The translations under genes were made by a program, and so were the position numbers. This document shows positions 7,840-30,716 of a stretch of 53,147 nt of DNA, piece by piece. The stretch is from a bacterium (lineage in GTDB: Bacteria > CG2-30-53-67 > CG2-30-70-394). Under the pieces are notes generated by a model. The model was not told the origin of the DNA. It did not search any database and saw only the letters and a list, made by a program, of their open reading frames with translations. Positions within the stretch are counted from its first letter, which is position 1, and each line of letters opens with the position of its first letter. Location: the NCBI GenBank assembly GCA_024278555.1, contig JAJRSX010000079.1:1-53147 (forward strand), in the 5' to 3' direction.

Positions 7840-9234
7840 ATGAATCCCCTCCGCGACATCCCCGCCATCGATGCCCTCCTCGGCTGGCCGGAGCTTGCCG
7901 AGGCCGCCGCCCCCCTGCCCCACCGGCGGGCGGTGGCGGTGGTGCGGCGCGAGGTGGCGGCGGTGCGTGAGGAGGTGCGGGCGGGCGGCGCGCTCCCCGA
8001 TCGTGGGGGGTGGGTGGCACGCCTCGCCGGGGCGTTGGCGGTGGCGGCGCGGCCGAACCTGCGGCGGGTGGTGAACGGGACCGGGGTGGTCTTGCACACC
8101 AACCTCGGCCGGGCGCCCCTGGACCGGGAGAGCCTGGCACGGGTGAGGGAGGTGGCGGCGGGCTACTCGACCCTCGAGTACGACGTCGCGGCCGGGCGCC
8201 GCGGCAGCCGCCGGGAGGCGGTGGCGGAGCTGTTGGTGGAGGTGACCGGGGCGGAGGCGGCCTACGTGGTGAACAACAACGCCGCCGCGGTCCTGCTGAT
8301 GCTCGACGCCCTCGCCCACGACCGCGAGGTCGTGGTGTCGCGCGGCGAGCTGGTGGAGATCGGCGGCGCCTTCCGTATCCCCGAGGTGATGGCGAAGGGT
8401 GGCGCCACCCTGGTGGAGGCGGGGGCGACGAACCGTACCCGCCTCGCCGACTACCAGGCAGCGACCACCGAGGCCACCGCGGCGTGGCTCAAGGTCCACC
8501 AGTCGAACTTCCGCCAGGTCGGCTTCACCGGTCAGGTGGCGGTGGCGGAGCTCGCCGCCGCCGCCCACGCCCGCGGGCTGCTGTGTCTCGAAGACCTCGG
8601 GAGCGGCTGCCTCGTCCCCCCGGCGGAGCTCGGCCTCGCCCCGGAGCCGACGGTGGCCGAGGCGGTGGGAGCCGGCGTTGACCTGGTGACCTTCAGCGGT
8701 GACAAGCTCCTCGGCGGGCCGCAGGCGGGGATCGTCGTGGGCCGGAGGGCGCTGGTCGAAAGCCTCGCCGCCGACCCTCTGGCGCGGGCGGTGCGGTGCG
8801 ACAAGATGACCCTCGCCGCCCTGGAGGTGCTCCTGCGCCGCTACCTGGAGGCGGACGGCTGGCGCCGGGTTCCCACCCTGAGGATGCTCACCACGCCGGT
8901 GTCCACCCTGGCCGGCCGCGCCCGGCGGCTGGCGGCGGCGATCCAGCGGGTGGCGCCGGCCCTGGCGGTCTCCTGCCGGAGGGTCGAGGCGCGGGTCGGC
9001 GGCGGTGCTCAGGCGGAGGTGGCGCTGCCGAGCGTGGCGGTGGCGTTGCGCCACCCGGGCCGCTCGGCGCGTGAGCTGGAGGCCTGGCTGCGCGGCGGCG
9101 AGGTCCCGATCATCGGTCGCATCGACGGGGGGGAGCTCCTCCTCGACTGCCGCTGTCTCCTCCCCGGCGACGGCAAGGTGATCTGTGATCGCCTGGCTCC
9201 CCTTGTCGCCGGTGGCGGTGATCAGGGATCCTGA
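7840..9234 (+). CDS. selA: L-seryl-tRNA(Sec) selenium transferase
   Basis: VVNGTGVVLHTNLGRAP, VNNNAAAV, SRGELVEIGGAFRIP, EDLGSG, FSGDKLLGGPQAG (PLP Lys). Confidence 0.97.
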   Translation: MNPLRDIPAIDALLGWPELAEAAAPLPHRRAVAVVRREVAAVREEVRAGGALPDRGGWVARLAGALAVAARPNLRRVVNGTGVVLHTNLGRAPLDRESLARVREVAAGYSTLEYDVAAGRRGSRREAVAELLVEVTGAEAAYVVNNNAAAVLLMLDALAHDREVVVSRGELVEIGGAFRIPEVMAKGGATLVEAGATNRTRLADYQAATTEATAAWLKVHQSNFRQVGFTGQVAVAELAAAAHARGLLCLEDLGSGCLVPPAELGLAPEPTVAEAVGAGVDLVTFSGDKLLGGPQAGIVVGRRALVESLAADPLARAVRCDKMTLAALEVLLRRYLEADGWRRVPTLRMLTTPVSTLAGRARRLAAAIQRVAPALAVSCRRVEARVGGGAQAEVALPSVAVALRHPGRSARELEAWLRGGEVPIIGRIDGGELLLDCRCLLPGDGKVICDRLAPLVAGGGDQGS

Positions 9235-22406: not shown

Positions 22407-22721
22407 ATGGATCTTCAGGACAAGGTGCAGCTCCTGCGGGTGGTCGCCCATCCCACGCGGCTCAAGATCATCGAGCGGCTGGCGGCGGAGGGCGAGCCGC
22501 TCTGTGTCTCCGACCTGGAGCCCGACCTCGGCGTCCCGCAGCCGAACGTCTCCCAGCATTTGGCGGTGCTACGCAAGGCGGGAGTGGTGGACTTTTATGT
22601 GGACGGTCGGTTGCGTTGCTACTTTTTGAAGGATCCGCGGGTCGCGCGCCTCCTCGCGCTCCTTGACGAGGCGGTGGAGGAGGAGCCGGTCCCGCCCACC
22701 TGCTGTTCGGCGAAGGGGTAG
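22407..22721 (+). CDS. ArsR/SmtB family regulator
   Basis: AHPTRLKII, LCVSDL, QPNVSQHLAVLRKAG, C-terminal CC. Confidence 0.9.
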   Translation: MDLQDKVQLLRVVAHPTRLKIIERLAAEGEPLCVSDLEPDLGVPQPNVSQHLAVLRKAGVVDFYVDGRLRCYFLKDPRVARLLALLDEAVEEEPVPPTCCSAKG

Positions 22722-22754
22722 GGGAATGTGTCACCTTTTTCACAGGAGGTAGCC

Positions 22755-22988
22755 ATGAAGATCGATCTCCCCGATGTCCTCGTTCACCTCGACGAGACCC
22801 TCGACCACGACCACCTGGCGGCTATCGAGACCAATCTCCGGCAGGATCCCGGTGTGGTCTCCGTCGCCTTTCACGACGAGAGGCCGCACATGATGGTGGT
22901 GGCGTACGATCCGCAGGCAACCACGGAGGGGGCGATCCTCGAGCGGGTCACCGCCGAGGGTGTTCACGCGGAGCTCGCGGGGCTGTAG
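22755..22988 (+). CDS. His-rich HMA-like small protein lacking CxxC
   Basis: AGGAGG RBS, ferredoxin-like pattern GVVSV...VVAYDP. Confidence 0.7.
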   Translation: MKIDLPDVLVHLDETLDHDHLAAIETNLRQDPGVVSVAFHDERPHMMVVAYDPQATTEGAILERVTAEGVHAELAGL

Positions 22989-23119
22989 GGGGCTGTCGGA
23001 CCCCCTTTACAATTCAGCGCCCCTGCTCCTCGCCATCTTCGCCGCAGGGGCGCGGTAGGAGCCATCCCGCTTCACGCTCCTTCCCTCCATCGGCCGCCTC
23101 GGCACCCCTCTGCCTTCCG

Positions 23120-23353
23120 TGGACAGATCCCAACCAGGTGTGTGTTCGCTGCCATGTGGTGAGCGGCGAGCGGAGGAACACCTTCTTCCGTTTCCCGCCG
23201 TGCGGCACGGTGGCCGAGATCCAGGCCAGTGGCCAACTCGCTGATCGCGTCGGCTGCCACATGCCGGAGGTCCGCCGGCCGCTGGTGGAAGGCGGGCAGG
23301 TACGCCCTGGCCACCTCCACCTGTGGCGCGGCGGCCACGACCCCGACACCGTA
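23120..23353 (+). pseudogene. Internal fragment of a multiheme c-type cytochrome
   Basis: PNQVCVRCH, degenerate RVGCHMP (C to R), HLWRGGHDP; no start or RBS. Confidence 0.65.
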
Positions 23354-23379
23354 CACCCGGTAGGTGGGTACAGAGTCAA
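23348..23379 (-). promoter_or_regulatory. Orphan MerR-family promoter (divergent)
   Basis: Minus strand TTGACT-CTGTACCCACCTACCGGGTG-TACGGT, 20-bp spacer. Confidence 0.65.
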
Positions 23380-23488
23380 GGGAACGCCGGTAGGTATGTA
23401 GACAGGGGGGAGACCCGTTGGAGATCGGGTGTCGCCGGTGGCCCCGTTTTTTCCACCCCCACCTTTTTTCGCGCAGCGAAAAAAGCCC

Positions 23489-23520
23489 TTGACTCTATAC
23501 TTTACTACAGACTGTAGGCT
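23489..23520 (+). promoter_or_regulatory. MerR-family promoter upstream of second MerR gene
   Basis: TTGACT-CTATACTTTACTACAGACTG-TAGGCT, 20-bp spacer. Confidence 0.75.
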
Positions 23521-23543
23521 TGCTCTCGAACCAAGAGGTCGCC

Positions 23544-23975
23544 ATGGAATCGTTCACCATCGGTCAGGTCGCCCGGCGCGCGGAGGTTGGCGTGCAGACG
23601 ATCCGCTACTACGAACGGGAGGGGCTGCTCCCGGAGCCCGCCCGGCGTCCCTCGGGCTACCGCGTGTACCCCGAGGGGGTGGTGCGCCGCCTCCTCTTCA
23701 TCCGCCGTGCCAAGGAACTGGGCTTCTCCCTGCGGGAGATCAAGGAGCTTCTCGCCCTGCGGGTCGACCCGGGCTGCACCTGCGGTGAGATCAAGGCGAG
23801 GGCGCTGGCGAAGGTCGACGATGTCGACCGCAAGATTGCCTCTCTCCAGTGCATCCGTGGTGCCCTCCTCGACCTGGCCGACGCCTGCCCCGGGGGCAAC
23901 GCCACCACCGATTGCCCCATCCTTGATGCCCTCGATGGCACCAAAGGAGAACACCATGCAGAAGCGAACCGTTGA
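23544..23975 (+). CDS. MerR-family heavy-metal-responsive regulator
   Basis: FTIGQVA...TIRYYEREGLL, FIRRAKELGFSL, CTC and C-x8-CPIL. Confidence 0.9.
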   Translation: MESFTIGQVARRAEVGVQTIRYYEREGLLPEPARRPSGYRVYPEGVVRRLLFIRRAKELGFSLREIKELLALRVDPGCTCGEIKARALAKVDDVDRKIASLQCIRGALLDLADACPGGNATTDCPILDALDGTKGEHHAEANR

Positions 23976-24231
23976 AGTCTTCACCGCCGGATGTCACCTG
24001 TGCGACGACGCCGTCACCCTGGTAAAGGAGATGGCGTGCCCGAGCTGTGAGGTGGTGGTCCACGACCTCGCCAAGGGGTGTGAGAGCGACGACTGTCGGG
24101 AGCAGGCGCGGCGGTACGGGGTCACCACCGTCCCGGCGGTGGTCGTGGACGGCGCCCTCGCCGCCTGCTGCCGGGGCGGTGGCGTCGATCGGGATGGGCT
24201 CACCGCCGCCGGGGTGGGAGTGGCGCGGTGA
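23956..24231 (+). CDS. Cys-rich thioredoxin/glutaredoxin-like protein
   Basis: AGGAG RBS; VEVFTAGCHLC, CPSC, VPAVVVDG, ACC. Confidence 0.82.
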   Translation: MQKRTVEVFTAGCHLCDDAVTLVKEMACPSCEVVVHDLAKGCESDDCREQARRYGVTTVPAVVVDGALAACCRGGGVDRDGLTAAGVGVAR

Positions 24232-24309
24232 TTCGGCCTTCGTTTGGATGTCCGCGATCGGCCGTGGGCGCGTCACGGTCCGGACCGGCCGGCCGCCTCC
24301 TCGCCCGAG

Positions 24310-24392
24310 GCGGGAGCGGGTCGTATCCGCGGTCCGCGCCGGCGGCGCGGCCTCCCCTTCGGGCCGGAATCGGGGGTGCAACCCCCTCCTAC
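24310..24392. repeat. REP doublet homologous to 87-169
   Basis: Colinear with 87-169 including identical TCGGGGGTGCAACCCCCTCCTAC. Confidence 0.75.
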
Positions 24393-24412
24393 CCTATTTC
24401 AAGGAGCTCCCC

Positions 24413-24646
24413 ATGAAGGTCCTCGTCCTCCTTGCCCTCCTCCTCACCGCGCTTCCCGCCCTCGCTGGCGAGGTGCACGTCCAGGTGAACGGCCTCGCCT
24501 GCCCCTTCTGTGCCTACGGCCTGGAGAAGAAGCTGAAGCCCTTGGCCGGCGTGGCGGGGGTGCAGGTGCCGGTGGTGCAGAACCTGAACGGCTACAGCCT
24601 GGAGTCAGACTATGTAGTCACCGTGGGCGCACGGTGGCAGCACTAA
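24413..24646 (+). pseudogene. Chimeric ORF: truncated periplasmic HMA domain fused to a beta-barrel-like C-terminus
   Basis: Signal + GLACPFCAYGLEKKL, domain breaks at GVQV; then PVVQNLNG...VTVGARWQH. Confidence 0.55.
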
Positions 24647-24845: not shown

Positions 24846-25874
24846 CTAGTGTTTTGTGTTCCCGGAGATAGAGGCAGCAGTCGAGGGCTCGCTCGTCGCC
24901 ACCGGTAGCCCCTCTCGGCACCACGCGCGCATGCCGCCACGCACCAGGATGGGTGCCTGGAAACCGGCGGCGCGCAGCCGCCGCACCGCCACGGTGGAGC
25001 GCTTGTCGGTGCGACAAACCACGGCGACGGTACGATCGCGCCACCCTTCCAGCTTTCCGAGGTGGCTCTCCAGCTCCCCGAGGGGGGGGTTGCAGGCGCC
25101 CAGGATGTGACAGGTGACGTAGTCTTTGGGATCGCGTACGTCGAGCACCAGGTCCACCTCGCCCAGCGTAAGCCCCTCCTCAAGGGTGGTGGCGGTGAGC
25201 TCACCCGCCGTTGGGTCGCCACCACGCAGCCGTCGCACCAGGCGCGGAAGCAGGGCTACCGCCGCCAGCGCCCCGAGGGCGAGGAGCCCCTTGCGGATCG
25301 CCCCCTCGCCGCCCGCCGCCGCCGCCCGCCCCGCGTACCCCAGGTAGGTGTAGGCGGCCGCCGCCGGCGCCATGCACACGGCGGTGGCGAGGCAGTAGGC
25401 ACGCAGGGGGATGCGGGTGAGACCGAAGGCGTAGTTCAGGAGGTTGAAGGGGAAGAGCGGCACCAGGCGGACGAAGGCGACGAAGCGCCACCCCTCCCCC
25501 TCGACGCCGGCCACGAGTCGCTGCAGGCGCGGGCCGCTCTTGCGTGCCACCCAGTCGCCGGCGAGGTGGCGTGCCAGCAGAAAGGCGAGGGTGGCGCCGA
25601 GGGTGGCGCCGGTGAGGTTCCACACCGTCCCCCACAGCGGCCCGAAGAGGGCACCGCCGGCGAGGGTGAGGAGGGTGCCGGGGAGAAAGAGGAGGGAAGC
25701 CCCGGCGTAGAGGAGAATGAAGAGGAGAGGCGCCGCCGGTCCCAGACCCGCGAGCCACGCCCGCACCGCATCGGGGTCGATCCGGTCGCGGTAGGCGGCT
25801 GCCACCGCGATCGCCACAAGCAGCGCGGCCGCCATCGGCCAGCGGCGGAGTTTGAGTGGCGCCGGGGGCCTCAT
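24846..25874 (-). CDS. VTT/DedA (TVP38) membrane domain fused to rhodanese
   Basis: GGALFGPLWG, FVRLVPLFPFNLLNY; LDVRDP, HILGA, VCRTDKRS, GGMRAW. Confidence 0.88.
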   Translation of the reverse strand: MRPPAPLKLRRWPMAAALLVAIAVAAAYRDRIDPDAVRAWLAGLGPAAPLLFILLYAGASLLFLPGTLLTLAGGALFGPLWGTVWNLTGATLGATLAFLLARHLAGDWVARKSGPRLQRLVAGVEGEGWRFVAFVRLVPLFPFNLLNYAFGLTRIPLRAYCLATAVCMAPAAAAYTYLGYAGRAAAAGGEGAIRKGLLALGALAAVALLPRLVRRLRGGDPTAGELTATTLEEGLTLGEVDLVLDVRDPKDYVTCHILGACNPPLGELESHLGKLEGWRDRTVAVVCRTDKRSTVAVRRLRAAGFQAPILVRGGMRAWCREGLPVATSEPSTAASISGNTKH

Positions 25875-26105
25875 CGCGGCCACCCCCAGCCGCGTCCACG
25901 GGGGGCAAAGGTGTCGTATGCAGGAGGCATAATATGCAACGATACTAATATATCGGCGTGGCAACACGTCAACCGCCACGAAACGGCGGGGTCACGCGAC
26001 GCGGTGATCGACCAACCCGACCCGCAGTTCTCACCGGAGGTCTGCTGCGAGCGTGTATCTCCCCGAATCTGCCGGCTGCATCCTCGTCCGAGTCCTCGGC
26101 GACGT

Positions 26106-27328: not shown

Positions 27329-27525
27329 GACCTGGACGATCGCGGCCCGGGGAGGCGGCCAGAACCACCGGCACCCGCGATCGAGCTGATTCCCACTGCC
27401 GCTGAGTGCGGCACGGAGTGCTCGTGTGAAGAGGGTGCAAAACCGCGGCCATCGTAAGCGCCACGCCGTCCGAGGCGCTGACCCTCTCATCGCCCGCGGC
27501 ACCGGCGGGCTCGCGCTCACCTTCC

Positions 27526-27855
27526 CTACCGGCCGTCTCCCGAGGCGGTTGCCTCCTCCCGCTTCTGGAGCCAACGCCCCAGCTCCTCCAGGATCGCCAG
27601 CAGCCCCGGGTCGGGGAGACAGTAGTAGATAAAGGGGCCGCGCCGCTCTGGGCGCACCAGCCCCGCCTCGCGCAAGAGGCGGAGGTGGAAGGAGCAGTTG
27701 GTCTGGGAGAGGCCGGTAGCGGCGAGGATGGCGGAGACCGGCCGGCACTCCAGCCCGAGGCTGCACAGGATCCGCAGGCGGTTCGGCTCCCCCAGGAGCT
27801 TGAAGACACGACTCAGGGGTTCGACGTTGATGGCGGGTGTTGTGTTATCGCTCAT
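27526..27855 (-). CDS. ArsR/SmtB family regulator, Cys-rich
   Basis: FKLLGEPNRLRIL, SQTNCSFHLRLLREAGLV, YYCL; divergent from methyltransferase. Confidence 0.9.
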   Translation of the reverse strand: MSDNTTPAINVEPLSRVFKLLGEPNRLRILCSLGLECRPVSAILAATGLSQTNCSFHLRLLREAGLVRPERRGPFIYYCLPDPGLLAILEELGRWLQKREEATASGDGR

Positions 27856-27962
27856 ATGAGTCTTTACTAAAGTATGGGGTGATCGTCCCCAGCCGACCGC
27901 CCGGTGTCAACCTTGTCCGATGGAGCAGGGGGCGGTGTCAACTGGATCAGTGGAGCGCCTGT

Positions 27963-28712
27963 ATGGCAACCGAGCATGACGTCGAGGGTATCCAGCAGGG
28001 GATCCGGCAGAAGTACGCCGCGGTCGCCGCCAGCGCCACGGGCAAGTTCGCCTACCCCACGGGGCGCGAGGGGGCGGTGACCTTGGCTTATGACCCGGTC
28101 CACCTGGCAGCGGCGCACGAGGGGCTTTTTGCCGCCTACTGCGGCGTAGGCAATCCGTTCTCCCTGGGGGAGATCCGGGAGGGGGAGGCGCCCCTCGACG
28201 TGGGGTGCGGCGGCGGCCTCGACCTCTTCGTGGCGAGCCGCCTGGTGGGCCCGACCGGGCGGGCGTGTGGGATCGACCTGACGCCGGAGATGGCGTCCCG
28301 CGCCCGCGCCAACCTGACCTCCGCAGGCGTCGCCCACGCGGATGTCAAGGTGGCAACGGCCGAGGCGATCCCCTACCCGGACGCCACCTTCGACGTGGTC
28401 ACCTCCAATGGCGTCCTCAACCTCGCCCCGCGCAAGAGGCAAAGCTTCCGGGATATCTTCCGGGTGCTGCGCCCTGGCGGCCGGCTGCACCTCGTCGACA
28501 TCGTTCTGGCGGACGGGGTGCCGCAGCCTTCGACCTGCTCCATCGACGCCTGGTCCCGGTGAATCGGCGGTGCGATCCCGGTCGGGGATCTCGTTGCCCT
28601 CCTGCGGGAGGTGGGGTTTATCGAGGTGGAGCATGCAGGTGCCACCCCCATGGCCACCTCCAGACAGACGGCTGGGGCCTGCTTCCGGGCTCGCAGACCA
28701 CCCACCGACTGA
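27963..28712 (+). CDS. Selenocysteine-containing SAM-dependent methyltransferase (ArsM/AS3MT-like), Sec at residue 200
   Basis: LDVGCGGG, FDVVTSNGVLNL, RVLRPGG; in-frame TGA 28560-28562 in AWSR-U-IGGA, then 49 more codons; SECIS-like hairpin; selA in window. Confidence 0.85.
28566..28598 (+). promoter_or_regulatory. Bacterial SECIS element
   Basis: GGCGGUG-C-GAUCCC-[GGUCG]-GGGAUC-U-CGUUGCC; G-starting apical loop begins 17 nt after UGA. Confidence 0.78.
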
Positions 28713-28779
28713 TCACGCCATCGAAATTATTATTGTTCACCTCCCGCGCCGTACCGGCGCCCAACCCGAGGAGCCCCCC

Positions 28780-29139
28780 ATGGCCGACCGCTACCTGCTG
28801 ATCATCACCCACGCCAAGGACGACGAGGACCGGGCGAATGCCGCCATTGCCTTTGCCACCTCCCTGGTGAGCGACGGCCACGAGGTGGCCCTCTTCTTCC
28901 TCTTCGAGGGGGCCAACCTGGCGCGGCGCGGGGTGGCGGAGACCATCGCCGGGCGCAACTACGCGCCGGTGCGCGACCTGTTGCCGATCCTCCGGGAGGC
29001 GCCGGTGGAGCTCATGGTGTGCGGCGCCTGCGCCAAGACCTACAACATCGCGGAGGGCGACCTGATCGACGGCTGCCGGATCGTCCAGATCCCCACGGTG
29101 ACCGCCCTGATGGGGGGCCGCCAGACCCTCACCTTCTGA
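28780..29139 (+). CDS. DsrE/DsrF family sulfur-relay protein
   Basis: GAGGAG RBS; LFFLFEGANL, MVCGAC, ends QTLTF. Confidence 0.87.
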   Translation: MADRYLLIITHAKDDEDRANAAIAFATSLVSDGHEVALFFLFEGANLARRGVAETIAGRNYAPVRDLLPILREAPVELMVCGACAKTYNIAEGDLIDGCRIVQIPTVTALMGGRQTLTF

Positions 29140-29233
29140 GGGCTCGTGCAACAACACCAAGCTATTTTTTCGCGAGCCCTAACCGGGCAAGCCCCGGCCC
29201 GCCCGACCGAGGAGTTGTCATGGCCGTAGCACG

Positions 29234-29555
29234 GTGGCGCCGGATCGCCGCCGTTACACCCTCACCCTGACCAACACCGGCGCCGCCCACTACCTCCCCA
29301 CCGGCGCCCCCGACCGCCACCTCACCGTGACCTTCCGCCTCCTCGACACCGCCGGCCACACCCTCCGGGAGGAGCGCCACCGCCTGCGCCGCGCCATCCT
29401 CTGGCGCCCCTTTATCGTCGACCTGTGGGACACCCGGTTGGTGCGCCACACCCCCCGCACCTACACCTTCGACTTCGCCACGGTCGGCCGCGCCGCCTCC
29501 GCCACCCTGGAGGTGGCGGTCCGCTACCACCTCCTGGACGAGAAACGGCGGGCTC
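29234..29555 (+). pseudogene. C-terminal fragment of a multiheme c-type cytochrome
   Basis: LTLTNTGAAHYLPTGAPDR motif typical of the post-heme Ig-like domain; no start. Confidence 0.65.
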
Positions 29556-29745
29556 GCTCTCTGCGCGCAGGAGATCGAAGAGGGCGGGCATGGCGTCACG
29601 TACAGCCTCGGGGCCGGGCGGCACGTGCATCGGTGGGATTCTGCCGGAAGCAGGCGGGGGAGCAGGCGATGAGGGTGGCCGGCAGCGAGAAGAGGCGCGG
29701 GCCGTCCACCTCCTCGACGTCGCTTTCCGGCGGCATCGGCCTTGA
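29545..29745 (-). pseudogene. Internally deleted Fic-domain gene remnant
   Basis: RLFSLPATLIACSPACFRQNPTDAR in one frame, HVPPGPEAVRDAMPALFDLLRAESEPAV in another; recognised from family memory only. Confidence 0.5.
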
Positions 29746-29759
29746 AGGCGGGGTTTTAG

Positions 29760-29879
29760 CGCAGAGATGGGATGAGGAGGCCGCTCTCCTCGCGAGCTCA
29801 GGTTCTAACCTGGCTCAATCTAACCACGGGCTCGGAGCCCCCAAACAGAGGAGAGCGGCCTCCTCATCCCATCTCTGCG
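29760..29879. repeat. Perfect 32-bp inverted repeat with 56-bp spacer
   Basis: CGCAGAGATGGGATGAGGAGGCCGCTCTCCTC 29760-29791 and exact complement 29848-29879. Confidence 0.9.
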
Positions 29880-29888
29880 GTGCGCAAA

Positions 29889-30716
29889 TCAGTCGAGGAA
29901 GAGGTCCGGCAGGAGCGGCGCGCCGGGTTGCACTGCGTAGCGGTCAAAATCGGTGACCCCCTGGCCGCGGAGGAGCTCTTCGTCGATGAAGAAGCGGCCG
30001 GTGGCCTCGCGACTCGGACGGCAGAGGAGGCAGTGTGCGGCGTCGGCGACGATCTCGGCCTTGCGGCAGTTCTCCGCGCGCACCTGCGGGATCATCGCCA
30101 GGGCGGCGGTGGCGATCACCGTGCGCGGCCAGAGGCCGTTCACCGCCACCCCGGCCCCGGCCAGCTCCGCGGCCAGGCCGATCACCGCCAGGCTCATGGC
30201 GTACTTCGCCATGGTGTAGCCGGTGTGGTCCCGGAACCACTTGGGATCCAGATTCGGGGGCGGGGCGAGGGTGAGGATGTGGGGGTTGTCCGCCTCCAGG
30301 AGGTGCGGCAGACACGCCTGGCTGACGCACAGGGTGCCGCGACCGTTCACCGCCATCATCAGGTCGAACCGCTTCAGGGGCAGGGTGGCGGTGGAGGCGA
30401 GGAAGATGGCGGAGGCGTTGTTCACCACGATGTCGATGCCGCCAAACCGTTCCGCGGTTGTTGCCACCGCCGCGGCCACCGCCCCCTCGTCGCGGATATC
30501 CACGGCCAGGGGCAGGGCCTCCCCGCCCGCCTCCTCCACCTGCTCGGCCGCGGTGTAGATGGTCCCCGGCAGGCGCGGGTGGGGCTTGGCGCTCTTCGCC
30601 ACGATCGCCACCTTGGCGCCGTCGCGCGCCGCGCGCTCCGCGATCGCCAGGCCGATGCCGCGGCTGGCGCCGGTGATGAAGAGCCGCTTGTCGCGCAGGT
30701 CCGCCACCGGGCTCAC
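29889..30716 (-). CDS. SDR oxidoreductase, HSDL2/citronellol dehydrogenase-like
   Basis: ITGASRGIG, HPRLPGTIYTAA, NNASAI, YTMAK, LWPRTVIATAA. Confidence 0.9.
   Translation of the reverse strand: MSPVADLRDKRLFITGASRGIGLAIAERAARDGAKVAIVAKSAKPHPRLPGTIYTAAEQVEEAGGEALPLAVDIRDEGAVAAAVATTAERFGGIDIVVNNASAIFLASTATLPLKRFDLMMAVNGRGTLCVSQACLPHLLEADNPHILTLAPPPNLDPKWFRDHTGYTMAKYAMSLAVIGLAAELAGAGVAVNGLWPRTVIATAALAMIPQVRAENCRKAEIVADAAHCLLCRPSREATGRFFIDEELLRGQGVTDFDRYAVQPGAPLLPDLFLD

What the first reader, a model, noticed from the sequence alone, without database searches (positions are those of the whole stretch)
27526..29139. Hidden selenoprotein: ArsR / Sec-methyltransferase / DsrE module
The ORF track stops at TGA 28560, but the frame continues 49 codons (IGGAIPVGDLVALLREVGF...FRARRP) that resemble the ArsM C-terminus. 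The TGA sits where ArsM has the Cys of W-x-x-C-I-A-G-A. A hairpin with a GG-starting loop begins 17 nt downstream, as expected for a bacterial SECIS, and selA is present. The other core ArsM Cys (SNCVxNL) is Gly here (SNGVLNL), while CGVGNP and a TCS Cys remain. With a Cys-rich divergent ArsR and a downstream DsrE, and no ars genes nearby, the substrate may be a sulfur/selenium species or another metal(loid) rather than arsenite (inference). Sec-containing ArsM-like proteins have been predicted before; I know of no characterisation of this module.
Basis: partly seen in the sequence, partly recalled or inferred. Interest (0 to 1): 0.85.

Follow-up and report, generated by a model that had tools for sequence, protein, structure and literature searches.

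The report
Unannotated selenocysteine ArsM-like methyltransferase gene
The apparent stop codon inside this methyltransferase gene is almost certainly read as selenocysteine, which makes it a new member of an already known selenoprotein family that gene callers routinely cut short.

Summary
The gene at 27963-28712 (+) has an in-frame TGA at 28560-28562, followed by 49 more sense codons.

Evidence that the TGA encodes selenocysteine (Sec):
- It aligns with the catalytic Cys (GEC[L/I]xGA) of solved ArsM structures.
- The same codon is TGA in 80 of 80 best related genome loci, with the downstream frame conserved.
- A 6-bp hairpin 11 nt after the TGA is paired in 99.4% of cells across 82 sequences. 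Four of its 6 pairs show compensatory changes, and 0 of 500 shuffles match this.
- selA, selB, selD and tRNA-Sec are all present.
- The read-through protein folds with pLDDT 93.6, and its best structural matches are ArsM and AS3MT.

The family is not new. "Arsenite methyltransferase, UxxG" is a listed selenoprotein family (PMC13188914, PMC2398784), and NCBIfam holds models of fused Sec forms.

The ArsR/DsrE "module" is local. ArsR neighbours occur in 6-8 of 80-82 loci, DsrE in 3 of 80.

All Sec forms carry Gly at the ArsM Cys174 site. This protein therefore fails the "3 of 4 cysteines" ArsM criterion, and its substrate is open.

Verdict: real feature, new member of a known kind, moderate interest.

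The parts
27963..28712 (+). Sec-containing ArsM-like SAM-dependent methyltransferase. It has 249 residues with U at codon 200, and the final stop is TGA 28710-28712.
   Evidence: Translation. Pfam Methyltransf_31/11/25. NCBIfam ArsM selenoprotein models at E 6e-82. PDB ArsM alignments. AlphaFold2 pLDDT 93.6. Foldseek top hits are ArsM/AS3MT.
28560..28562 (+). In-frame TGA read as selenocysteine (U200, motif U-I-G-G, i.e. UxxG).
   Evidence: It aligns with the ArsM Cys of GEC(L/I)xGA. The codon is TGA in 80 of 80 genome loci, in 23 further metagenome loci, and in 5 of 5 close relatives.
28574..28590 (+). SECIS upper stem-loop: GAUCCC / loop GGUCG / GGGAUC. The stem starts 11 nt after the UGA.
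   Evidence: Covariation on 82 sequences: 99.4% of cells paired, 4 of 6 pairs with compensatory changes, 37 double-change cells, 0 of 500 shuffles as high. Loop G22 is invariant and U23 is at least 90% conserved.
27526..27855 (-). Divergently transcribed ArsR/SmtB-family regulator with Cys31, Cys37, Cys54 and Cys79.
   Evidence: Pfam HTH_5/HTH_20. NF033788 at 73.3 bits, above the cut-off of 55; TsoR model at 66 bits, below 115. An 80% identical orthologue sits upstream of the MT in G002. It lacks the ELC(V/A)C motif seen in the ars-operon ArsRs of L080 and L100.
27902..27942 (.). Two exact copies of CGGTGTCAAC, 31 nt apart, in the 107-nt ArsR-MT intergenic region. They are a candidate operator (inference).
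   Evidence: No sigma-70-like promoter was found by the consensus scan.
28780..29139 (+). DsrE/DsrF-like small protein (119 aa) with an invariant C81-G-A-C84 motif, 67 nt downstream of the MT on the same strand.
   Evidence: Pfam PF02635 at 61 bits. The CxxC is invariant in 13 of 13 relatives. Adjacency to the MT is not conserved.
7849..9195 (+). selA (selenocysteine synthase), part of the Sec machinery that the reading requires.
   Evidence: TIGR00474 at 541 bits, above the cut-off. selB is on C170, selD on C210 and tRNA-Sec on C88.

Best explanation
The gene at 27963-28712 encodes a 249-residue, stand-alone, ArsM-like class I SAM-dependent methyltransferase. Codon 200 (TGA, 28560-28562) is decoded as selenocysteine by SelB and tRNA-Sec, which are recruited by the stem-loop at 28574-28590.

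Sec200 occupies the position of the catalytic, As(III)-binding Cys224 of CmArsM (Cys206 of human AS3MT). The protein belongs to the known selenoprotein family 'arsenite methyltransferase, UxxG'. Its methyltransferase domain is closest to those of the fused Sec forms NF041537, NF041536 and NF047649, but it lacks their C-terminal domain.

It keeps Cys60 (= CmArsM Cys72). It has Gly at the Cys174 site and no N-terminal Cys44 equivalent.

Inferred working model:
- A soft metalloid or chalcogen substrate is held between Cys60 and Sec200, perhaps with loop Cys192, next to bound SAM, and is methylated.
- A Cys-Sec selenenylsulfide could take the redox role of the ArsM disulfide cascade.
- The divergent Cys-bearing ArsR probably represses the gene until a thiophilic inducer binds.
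- The CxxC DsrE-like protein downstream may be a local thiol/sulfur-transfer partner, but it is a lineage-specific neighbour and not a conserved part.

Shown here: Sec decoding signals, fold, family placement, and the variable neighbourhood. Inferred: substrate, catalytic cycle, regulation.
For: Position and frame:
- The TGA lies opposite the ArsM catalytic Cys.
- Six of 6 TGA-bearing relatives and 24 of 24 Cys-bearing relatives align at this column.
- 80 of 80 genome loci have TGA here, together with Cys60 and Gly150. The pattern that brought in TGA loci was [YF]CGVGNPF, which does not select for TGA.
- 23 metagenome loci have TGA, against 3 SNC-type loci with TGC.
- Downstream residues are conserved: G202, G203, G218, T228, S233, T236 and G238 are invariant in 42 sequences.

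SECIS: covariation as. For example, pair 16-30 is A-U in 54 sequences, G-C in 21 and G-U in 7, with no mismatch.

Sec machinery: selB 326 bits, selA 541 bits, selD 357 bits (itself with one in-frame TGA), tRNA-Sec 77 bits.

Fold:
- Mean pLDDT is 93.6 and pTM 0.92.
- Residues 201-249 form a helix and two strands, with block pLDDT of 92-98.
- The top 11 chains listed by Foldseek (ranks 1-13) are all ArsM or AS3MT, with TMq 0.62-0.76.

NCBIfam: the best hits are three ArsM/methyltransferase selenoprotein models, at E 6e-82 to 4e-75.

Literature: the family is listed in PMC13188914 Table 1 (passages) and in the PMC2398784 table (passages).

Tree: the gene sits in a Sec-only clade of 26 rows (support 100/99), separate from the Cys-type ArsM clade.
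Against: - No direct evidence of selenium incorporation or of any enzyme activity exists.
- Folding energy of the hairpin is not better than shuffles (z -0.33).
- The extended lower stem seen in the window is not conserved (44% of cells paired).
- Ten of 120 database homologues show Trp and one shows Ser (P0014) at the site. The contigs of those proteins themselves were not recovered, so the Trp explanation is indirect, and the Ser form was not followed up.
- Against an arsenic role: only 2 of the 4 canonical ArsM cysteine positions are filled, the genome's arsC-acr3 lie on another contig, and only 2 of 80 family loci have acr3 within 4 kb.
- For an arsenic role in at least some members: those 2 loci (L080, L100) place the gene directly beside arsR-acr3(-arsC).
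- Haft & Tolstoy 2025, the source of the fused-form models, is not held. What it says about stand-alone forms is unknown to me.
Confidence: 0.88

Rival explanations
1. ArsR, the Sec-methyltransferase and DsrE form a conserved functional module. It acts on a sulfur/selenium species or a non-arsenic metal(loid), with DsrE as an obligatory partner.
For: - The three genes are adjacent, with MT and DsrE on one strand 67 nt apart.
- Within the genus, a DsrE copy (83-87% identical) lies on the same contig as the MT in all three loci: the window, C50 and G002.
- DsrE has an invariant CxxC.
- The window neighbourhood also holds a rhodanese fusion, a thioredoxin-like ORF, a MerR and a second ArsR.
- A DsrE-like UxxC selenoprotein family exists (PMC13188914, passage seen).
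Against: - Family-wide, DsrE is within 4 kb in 3 of 80 loci and ArsR in 6 of 80.
- No neighbour cluster exceeds 8 of 82 loci.
- In G002 and C50, DsrE lies 9 kb and 3.6 kb from the MT with other genes between, so adjacency in the window is a local rearrangement.
- The ArsRs next to family members are heterogeneous.
Confidence: 0.1
2. The protein is a bona fide arsenite (or methylarsenite) methyltransferase. Sec simply replaces Cys224 for higher reactivity, and arsenic detoxification is its role.
For: - Closest structures and sequence families are ArsM and AS3MT.
- The family is named arsenite methyltransferase in the selenoprotein literature.
- The regulator is of the ArsR family.
- In L100 (Bacillus benzoevorans) and L080, the family member sits beside arsR-acr3(-arsC).
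- A relative occurs in Anaerobacillus arseniciselenatis.
Against: - It fails the field's sequence criterion of at least 3 of the 4 Cys at positions 44/72/174/224 (PMC5552862, passage seen). Only C60 and U200 are present.
- Gly150 is invariant in all Sec forms examined.
- It scores below the NF008823 cut-off (184.5 against 263).
- ars genes lie elsewhere in this genome.
- Only 2 of 80 loci are linked to ars genes.
- A Cys-type ArsM-like domain also exists on contig C4.
Confidence: 0.35
3. The TGA is a true stop. The gene is a 199-residue truncated methyltransferase or a pseudogene, and the downstream frame is open by chance.
For: - Gene callers end the ORF there.
- 109 of 120 database homologues have no residue at this column.
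Against: - The TGA and the downstream protein sequence are conserved across phyla in 80 of 80 loci.
- The hairpin shows compensatory changes.
- Truncation would remove a helix and the last two strands of the confidently modelled fold.
- Cys-type homologues continue through this column.
Confidence: 0.02

Closest known systems
Selenoprotein family 'arsenite (S-adenosyl)methyltransferase', motif UxxG. Sources: PMC13188914 Table 1, citing Fomenko et al. 2007 Science (not read); the GOS selenoproteome, PMC2398784.
   Same: - ArsM-like SAM methyltransferase domain.
- Sec in a U-x-x-G motif (here U200-I-G-G203).
- Single Sec, bacterial SECIS.
   Different: I could not fetch the family's representative sequence, so identity of subfamily is inferred from the motif and from NF008823 similarity (E 2.7e-54, below the cut-off). 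Whether the literature notes Gly at the Cys174 site is unknown to me.
NCBIfam NF041537 (ArsM/AhpD-domain selenoprotein), NF041536 (ArsM/DUF2284 selenoprotein) and NF047649 (methyltransferase/UXPK-star double selenoprotein), attributed to Haft & Tolstoy 2025.
   Same: The methyltransferase domain matches model positions 6-249, 6-250 and 6-248 at E 6e-82, 1.6e-75 and 4.1e-75, and the match spans the Sec position.
   Different: - Scores are far below the cut-offs: 275 against 510, 254 against 575, 252 against 460.
- There is no AhpD, DUF2284 or UXPK tail, and only one Sec.
- None of 61 related genomes has a hit above the NF041537 cut-off.
Canonical ArsM/AS3MT (CmArsM 4fr0/4fsd/6cx6, CrArsM 5evj, human AS3MT 8xt7).
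   Same: - Fold (TMq up to 0.76).
- SAM motif and the GCGNP-like Cys.
- The position of the catalytic Cys, here Sec.
   Different: - Sec instead of Cys224.
- Gly instead of Cys174.
- No Cys44 equivalent.
- About 80-130 residues shorter, lacking the C-terminal domain.
- Not in an ars operon in this genome.
E. coli fdhF-type bacterial SECIS (recalled knowledge: a minimal upper stem-loop 11 nt after the UGA, with conserved G and U in the apical loop).
   Same: - The stem begins 11 nt after the UGA.
- The loop carries an invariant G and a nearly invariant U.
   Different: - The sequence is unrelated, with a 6-bp stem and a 5-nt (or 3-nt) loop.
- No Rfam model matched.
- The comparison to fdhF is from memory, not from a call.
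DsrE-like selenoprotein family (PF02635, UxxC; PMC13188914 and PMC2398784 tables).
   Same: The downstream gene is a PF02635 protein with an invariant C-x-x-C.
   Different: - It is a Cys form: no in-frame TGA in any of the 14 matches in 12 of 61 genomes.
- Alignment of its CxxC to the family's UxxC was not tested.

Membership tests
Bacterial selenoprotein gene (Sec-decoded UGA) | In-frame UGA aligned with Cys in homologues (Sec/Cys pair) | tested here: met
   (PDB ArsM Cys). (24 of 24 Cys-type relatives have Cys at the column). (3 of 3 have TGC).
Bacterial selenoprotein gene (Sec-decoded UGA) | UGA and the downstream reading frame conserved in other organisms | tested here: met
   80 of 80 TGA; 23 further TGA.
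Bacterial selenoprotein gene (Sec-decoded UGA) | SECIS stem-loop shortly downstream of the UGA, supported by covariation | tested here: met
   99.4% of cells paired, 4 of 6 pairs compensatory, 0 of 500 shuffles as high. Slid controls give 18-72% paired.
Bacterial selenoprotein gene (Sec-decoded UGA) | selA, selB, selC and selD present in the genome | tested here: met
   All are above the curated cut-offs.
Bacterial selenoprotein gene (Sec-decoded UGA) | Selenium physically incorporated at the site | not testable with these tools
   Needs 75Se labelling or mass spectrometry.
Canonical arsenite methyltransferase ArsM/AS3MT | Class I SAM-binding methyltransferase fold most similar to ArsM | tested here: met
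Canonical arsenite methyltransferase ArsM/AS3MT | At least 3 of the 4 conserved Cys (CmArsM 44, 72, 174, 224), the criterion used in PMC5552862 | tested here: not met
   Only C60 (=72) and U200 (=224) are present. Position 174 is Gly, and there is no Cys N-terminal of C60. Criterion read as a passage.
Canonical arsenite methyltransferase ArsM/AS3MT | Score above the NCBIfam NF008823 cut-off | tested here: not met
   184.5 bits against a cut-off of 263. 177 bits in the genome search.
Canonical arsenite methyltransferase ArsM/AS3MT | SAM-dependent methylation of As(III) | not testable with these tools
   Needs an enzyme assay.
NF041537 / NF041536 / NF047649 fused Sec methyltransferases | Score above the cut-off, and a C-terminal AhpD / DUF2284 / UXPK part with further Sec | tested here: not met
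   Scores are 275/510, 254/575 and 252/460 bits. The protein ends at residue 249.
Selenoprotein 'arsenite methyltransferase, UxxG' | Sec in a UxxG motif within an ArsM-like (NF008823/PRK11873-like) domain | tested here: met
   U200-I-G-G203. NF008823 at E 2.7e-54. Motif as listed in PMC13188914.
ArsR/SmtB metalloregulators | Winged-helix HTH_5/HTH_20; NF033788 above the cut-off | tested here: met
   73.3 bits against a cut-off of 55. Pfam.
As(III)-sensing ArsR (R773 type, ELCVCD motif; the motif is recalled) | CVC/CAC triad in helix alpha-3 | tested here: not met
   The window ArsR has LC31SLGLEC37. The ars-operon ArsRs of L080 and L100 have ELCVCE and ELCACD.
DsrE/TusD sulfur-relay proteins | PF02635 above the cut-off; TusD/DsrE equivalog score | tested here: inconclusive
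   PF02635 at 61 bits, above 22.7. TIGR03012 reaches only 25 bits against 89, so the protein is a family member and not a TusD/DsrE equivalog.

The most novel reading that the evidence does not exclude
The Sec forms with Gly at the Cys174 site may be a distinct, very widespread enzyme class, found in at least 420 stretches of species-representative genomes. They would not be 'ArsM with Sec'.

They have given up two of the four ArsM cysteines and work through a Cys60-Sec200 selenenylsulfide pair. A third chalcogen appears to be supplied in mutually exclusive ways:
- a second, N-terminal Sec in a U-P-P-x-G-G motif (42 of 80 loci);
- one or two Cys in the loop before Sec200 (15 of 80, including this gene's Cys192);
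- neither of these.

On this reading the natural substrate would be something other than As(III), for example a selenium, tellurium, sulfur or mercury species. The family would be systematically hidden, because 109 of 120 database entries are cut at the TGA.
Probability: 0.2. Interest if true: 0.65.

Novelty: new member of a known kind. Interest (0 to 1): 0.35.

Why it matters
The gene would be annotated as a 199-residue methyltransferase fragment. The true product is a 249-residue selenoprotein, so correcting it restores the last helix and two strands of the fold and the catalytic residue.

The same error affects most database entries of this family: 109 of the 120 closest entries lack the column. 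Surveys of arsenic-methylation potential that filter on the four ArsM cysteines therefore either miss these genes or mislabel them.

All Sec forms examined have Gly at the Cys174 site: 6 of 6, 80 of 80 and 22 of 23, the other having Ala. This gives a concrete, testable question about whether these enzymes methylate arsenite at all.

For the organism, a Nitrospirota-related MAG by its nearest named relatives, it adds one or two selenoproteins to the selenoproteome.

Tried and rejected
- Frame slip: the first translation started two bases off. It was corrected.
- Rfam at E up to 10 on 27400-29300 gave only two chance sRNA matches and no SECIS model.
- Single-sequence folding energy was uninformative.
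- The lower stem of the window's hairpin is not conserved.
- tblastx of the paralogous contigs against the window was swamped by G+C-rich noise. It was repeated with identity and length filters.
- The metagenome scan with the Trp-bearing protein P0015 did not recover its own contig. The Trp question was settled indirectly.
- A consensus structure for the hairpins after the N-terminal TGA of the long forms was inconclusive. RNAalifold gave only 3 pairs, although the single-sequence folds show hairpins after most of them.
- Neighbour searches with single queries are of low sensitivity. All-against-all clustering of flank ORFs agreed that no neighbour is common.
- No NF041537-type fused form was found in 61 related genomes.
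- The promoter scan found nothing, and the only terminator-like site lies inside the DsrE gene.
- Literature searches for Sec-ArsM. None of the hits I opened describes the Gly174 pattern or the N-terminal Sec. Haft & Tolstoy 2025 (mSystems) is not held, and supplements are closed, so I do not claim that these are unpublished.
Full report
**1. What is in the sequence.**

The ORF list ends a 241-codon frame at TGA 28560-28562. From the ATG at 27963, preceded by GGAG 7 nt upstream, that TGA is codon 200. The frame then runs 49 further sense codons to TGA 28710-28712.

An ArsR-family gene lies divergently at 27526-27855. A DsrE-family gene follows at 28780-29139.
- YCGVGNP holds Cys60.
- SNGVLNL holds Gly150.
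- STCS holds Cys192.
- The frame continues IGGAIPV after the TGA.

**2. Is the TGA a Sec codon?**

Five independent lines say yes.

(a) Position. In phmmer alignments to solved ArsM structures, codon 200 lies opposite the Cys of GEC(L)(A/G)GA, and Gly150 lies opposite the Cys of SNCV.

(b) Conservation.
- In 61 related genomes, the closest matches carry TGA at the same codon with the motif CSIDAWSxU-IGGAIPV. These are a second copy on contig C50 of the same assembly, G002, G012 and G010.
- A pattern scan of species-representative genomes found 420 relatives. Of the 80 best loci, 80 have TGA at this codon, 80 have Cys60 and 80 have Gly150. The pattern that brought in TGA loci ([YF]CGVGNPF) does not select for TGA.
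- In metagenome contigs, 23 loci of this type have TGA, and 3 SNC-type loci have TGC.
- The protein after the TGA is conserved, with seven invariant residues in 42 sequences from several phyla.

(c) SECIS.
- A 6-bp stem (28574-28579 with 28585-28590) with loop GGUCG starts 11 nt after the UGA.
- On 82 ungapped sequences, 99.4% of cells pair, 4 of 6 pairs show changes on both sides (37 cells), and no shuffle of 500 reaches these values. Sliding the partner by 1-3 columns drops pairing to 18-72%.
- The compensations link amino-acid-changing sites to synonymous sites: Ile/Val first base with Asp third base, and Pro/Ser first base with Gly third base. This pattern is what selection on RNA structure predicts.
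- Loop G22 is invariant and U23 nearly so.
- Energy alone is not informative, the lower stem is not conserved, and Rfam has no matching model.

(d) Machinery. selA lies in the window at 7849-9195. selB, selD (itself with an in-frame TGA) and tRNA-Sec are elsewhere in the genome. All are above the curated cut-offs.

(e) Fold. The read-through protein is modelled at mean pLDDT 93.6 and pTM 0.92. Residues 201-249 form a helix and two strands of the sheet. The best structural matches are ArsM and AS3MT chains. A 199-residue product would lack these elements.

**3. The Trp problem.**

Of the 120 best database proteins, 109 have no residue at the column (most end in AWSx), 10 show Trp and 1 shows Ser.

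The Trp-bearing proteins also show Trp in an N-terminal WPPxGG motif. In genome DNA that same motif is TGA-CCN-CCN. No TGG was seen at codon 200 in any of the 103 TGA-type loci (80, 23).

I conclude that those Trp residues are TGA translated under a TGA=Trp code. This is an inference, because the contigs of those proteins themselves were not recovered. The Ser form (P0014) was not followed up.

**4. What family is it?**

The NCBIfam best hits are three curated selenoprotein models: ArsM/AhpD, ArsM/DUF2284 and methyltransferase/UXPK-star. They hit at E 6e-82 to 4e-75 over the methyltransferase domain only, far below their full-length cut-offs. NF008823 (arsenite methyltransferase) scores 184.5 bits against a cut-off of 263.

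A 2026 review lists 'Arsenite methyltransferase, NF008823, UxxG, 1 Sec' in its experimentally verified block, citing Fomenko et al. 2007. It lists the three fused forms from Haft & Tolstoy 2025 (PMC13188914, passages). The GOS selenoproteome paper lists arsenite S-adenosylmethyltransferase with 8 Sec sequences (PMC2398784, passage).

The window protein has U200-I-G-G, i.e. UxxG. It is therefore a new, stand-alone member of a known selenoprotein family. No fused form was found in 61 related genomes.

**5. How it differs from canonical ArsM.**

The field's sequence criterion is a SAM domain plus at least 3 of the Cys at CmArsM positions 44, 72, 174 and 224 (PMC5552862, passage). Here only 72 (Cys60) and 224 (Sec200) are filled.

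The switch is correlated throughout:
- Every TGA form examined has Gly, once Ala, at position 174.
- Every Cys form has Cys at position 174.

In a maximum-likelihood tree of 77 rows, the window gene lies in a Sec-only clade of 26 rows (support 100/99). A second Sec-only group of 19 rows has weaker support (84/69), and the Cys-type ArsMs form their own clade. The Sec label needs at least 3 changes. Four outgroup rows without Cys at the site were counted under 'Cys' by my labelling.

Arsenite normally binds three cysteines in AS3MT (abstract of PMC3877260). The site here is therefore different.

**6. The 'module'.**

- Family-wide, ArsR is within 4 kb in 6 of 80 loci by tblastn and 8 of 82 by clustering. 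DsrE is within 4 kb in 3 of 80. No other neighbour is more common.
- The ArsRs involved are heterogeneous. Only the same-genus orthologue shares the four Cys of the window's ArsR.
- Within the genus, DsrE copies (83-87% identical) lie on the same contig as the MT, but 3.6 kb (C50) and 9 kb (G002) away. Synteny shows that the window's MT-DsrE adjacency arose by local rearrangement.
- DsrE has an invariant CxxC.
- Two loci put the family member directly beside arsR-acr3(-arsC): L100 (Bacillus benzoevorans) and L080. In this genome, arsC-acr3 are on contig C59.
- The window's wider neighbourhood holds a second ArsR, a MerR, a thioredoxin-like ORF and a VTT/rhodanese fusion. This fits thiol or metal stress but proves no substrate.

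**7. Mechanism (inferred).**

SAM binds the Rossmann-like domain. A thiophilic substrate is held by Cys60 and Sec200, with loop Cys192 as a possible third ligand or resolving residue. Methyl transfer follows, and a selenenylsulfide may substitute for the ArsM disulfide cascade.

In the family, a third chalcogen seems to be supplied in alternative ways:
- 42 of 80 loci have an N-terminal in-frame TGA in a U-P-P-x-G-G motif, and none of these has a Cys in residues 183-199.
- 15 of the other 38 loci have one or two Cys in that stretch. My pattern missed a few N-terminal cases.

Relatives are not independent, so this may simply reflect clades.

**8. Verdict.**

The claim of a conserved module is not supported, and the family is already known. 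Novelty: new member of a known kind. Interest is moderate: the annotation fix, the invariant Gly174 and the possible second Sec in relatives are worth a note to specialists.

Noticed in passing
L063-L130 (42 of the 80 loci L051-L130), about 45-75 codons upstream of the conserved IRxAIRxKY start; not in the window: Many family members have an N-terminal extension with a second in-frame TGA in a conserved M...(S/A)U(P/A)P(S/A)GGxGG(C/H/R) motif. The single-sequence folds show hairpins after most of these TGAs, but the consensus covariation test was inconclusive. The same motif appears as 'WPPxGG' in database proteins. It may be a second Sec.
   Followed up: partly
G000:C50:468-1208 (-) and G000:C50:4834-5190 (-): There is a second Sec-methyltransferase copy (74% identical, same TGA and hairpin) and a second DsrE copy (83%) on an 8.2-kb contig of the same assembly. 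The MT copy is closer to G002's gene than to the window's. The contig could therefore be a true paralogous region or a mis-binned contig of a related organism.
   Followed up: partly
G000:C210:5886-6809: selD itself carries one in-frame TGA, so the selenophosphate synthetase is probably a selenoprotein too.
   Followed up: no
window 22407-24646: A cluster of small regulator and redox genes. It holds a second ArsR (22407-22721, ending in CC), an 86-aa ORF without a Pfam hit, a MerR-family regulator (23544-23975) and a thioredoxin-like ORF (23962-24231). It also holds a signal-peptide ORF with a C-P-F-C motif (24413-24646, no Pfam hit).
   Followed up: partly
window 24846-25979 (-): A membrane VTT/DedA-type domain is fused to a C-terminal rhodanese domain. 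It is conserved at 85% identity in G002.
   Followed up: no
window 29234-29956 (+): An ORF without a Pfam hit. Its first ~107 codons are conserved in G002 and on C50 (59-76% in tblastx frames), where they sit next to the homologue of window 23113-23353. This marks the rearrangement that brought DsrE next to the MT.
   Followed up: partly
G000:C4:8535-9122: A Cys-type ArsM-like domain (SNC and GEC forms; 232 bits to NF008823, below the cut-off) lies inside an 884-codon open frame. Similar long frames (825-998 codons) occur in G001, G002, G004 and G052. It may be a large fusion protein.
   Followed up: no
L100:4001-6850 and L080:2437-4726: In Bacillus benzoevorans the family member is tail-to-tail with an arsR-acr3-arsC operon. 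In a Thermodesulfovibrionales MAG it is divergent from arsR-acr3. Both of these ArsRs carry ELC(V/A)C.
   Followed up: yes
P0014 (database protein, 256 aa): This is the one full-length homologue with Ser (AWSD-S-IGGAIPV) where the others have TGA. It could be a natural Ser variant or a sequencing or translation artefact.
   Followed up: no
L059:3023-3697: An ArsR next to a family member is fused to a C-terminal rhodanese-like extension. This is seen only as sequence in the alignment and was not scanned against Pfam.
   Followed up: no
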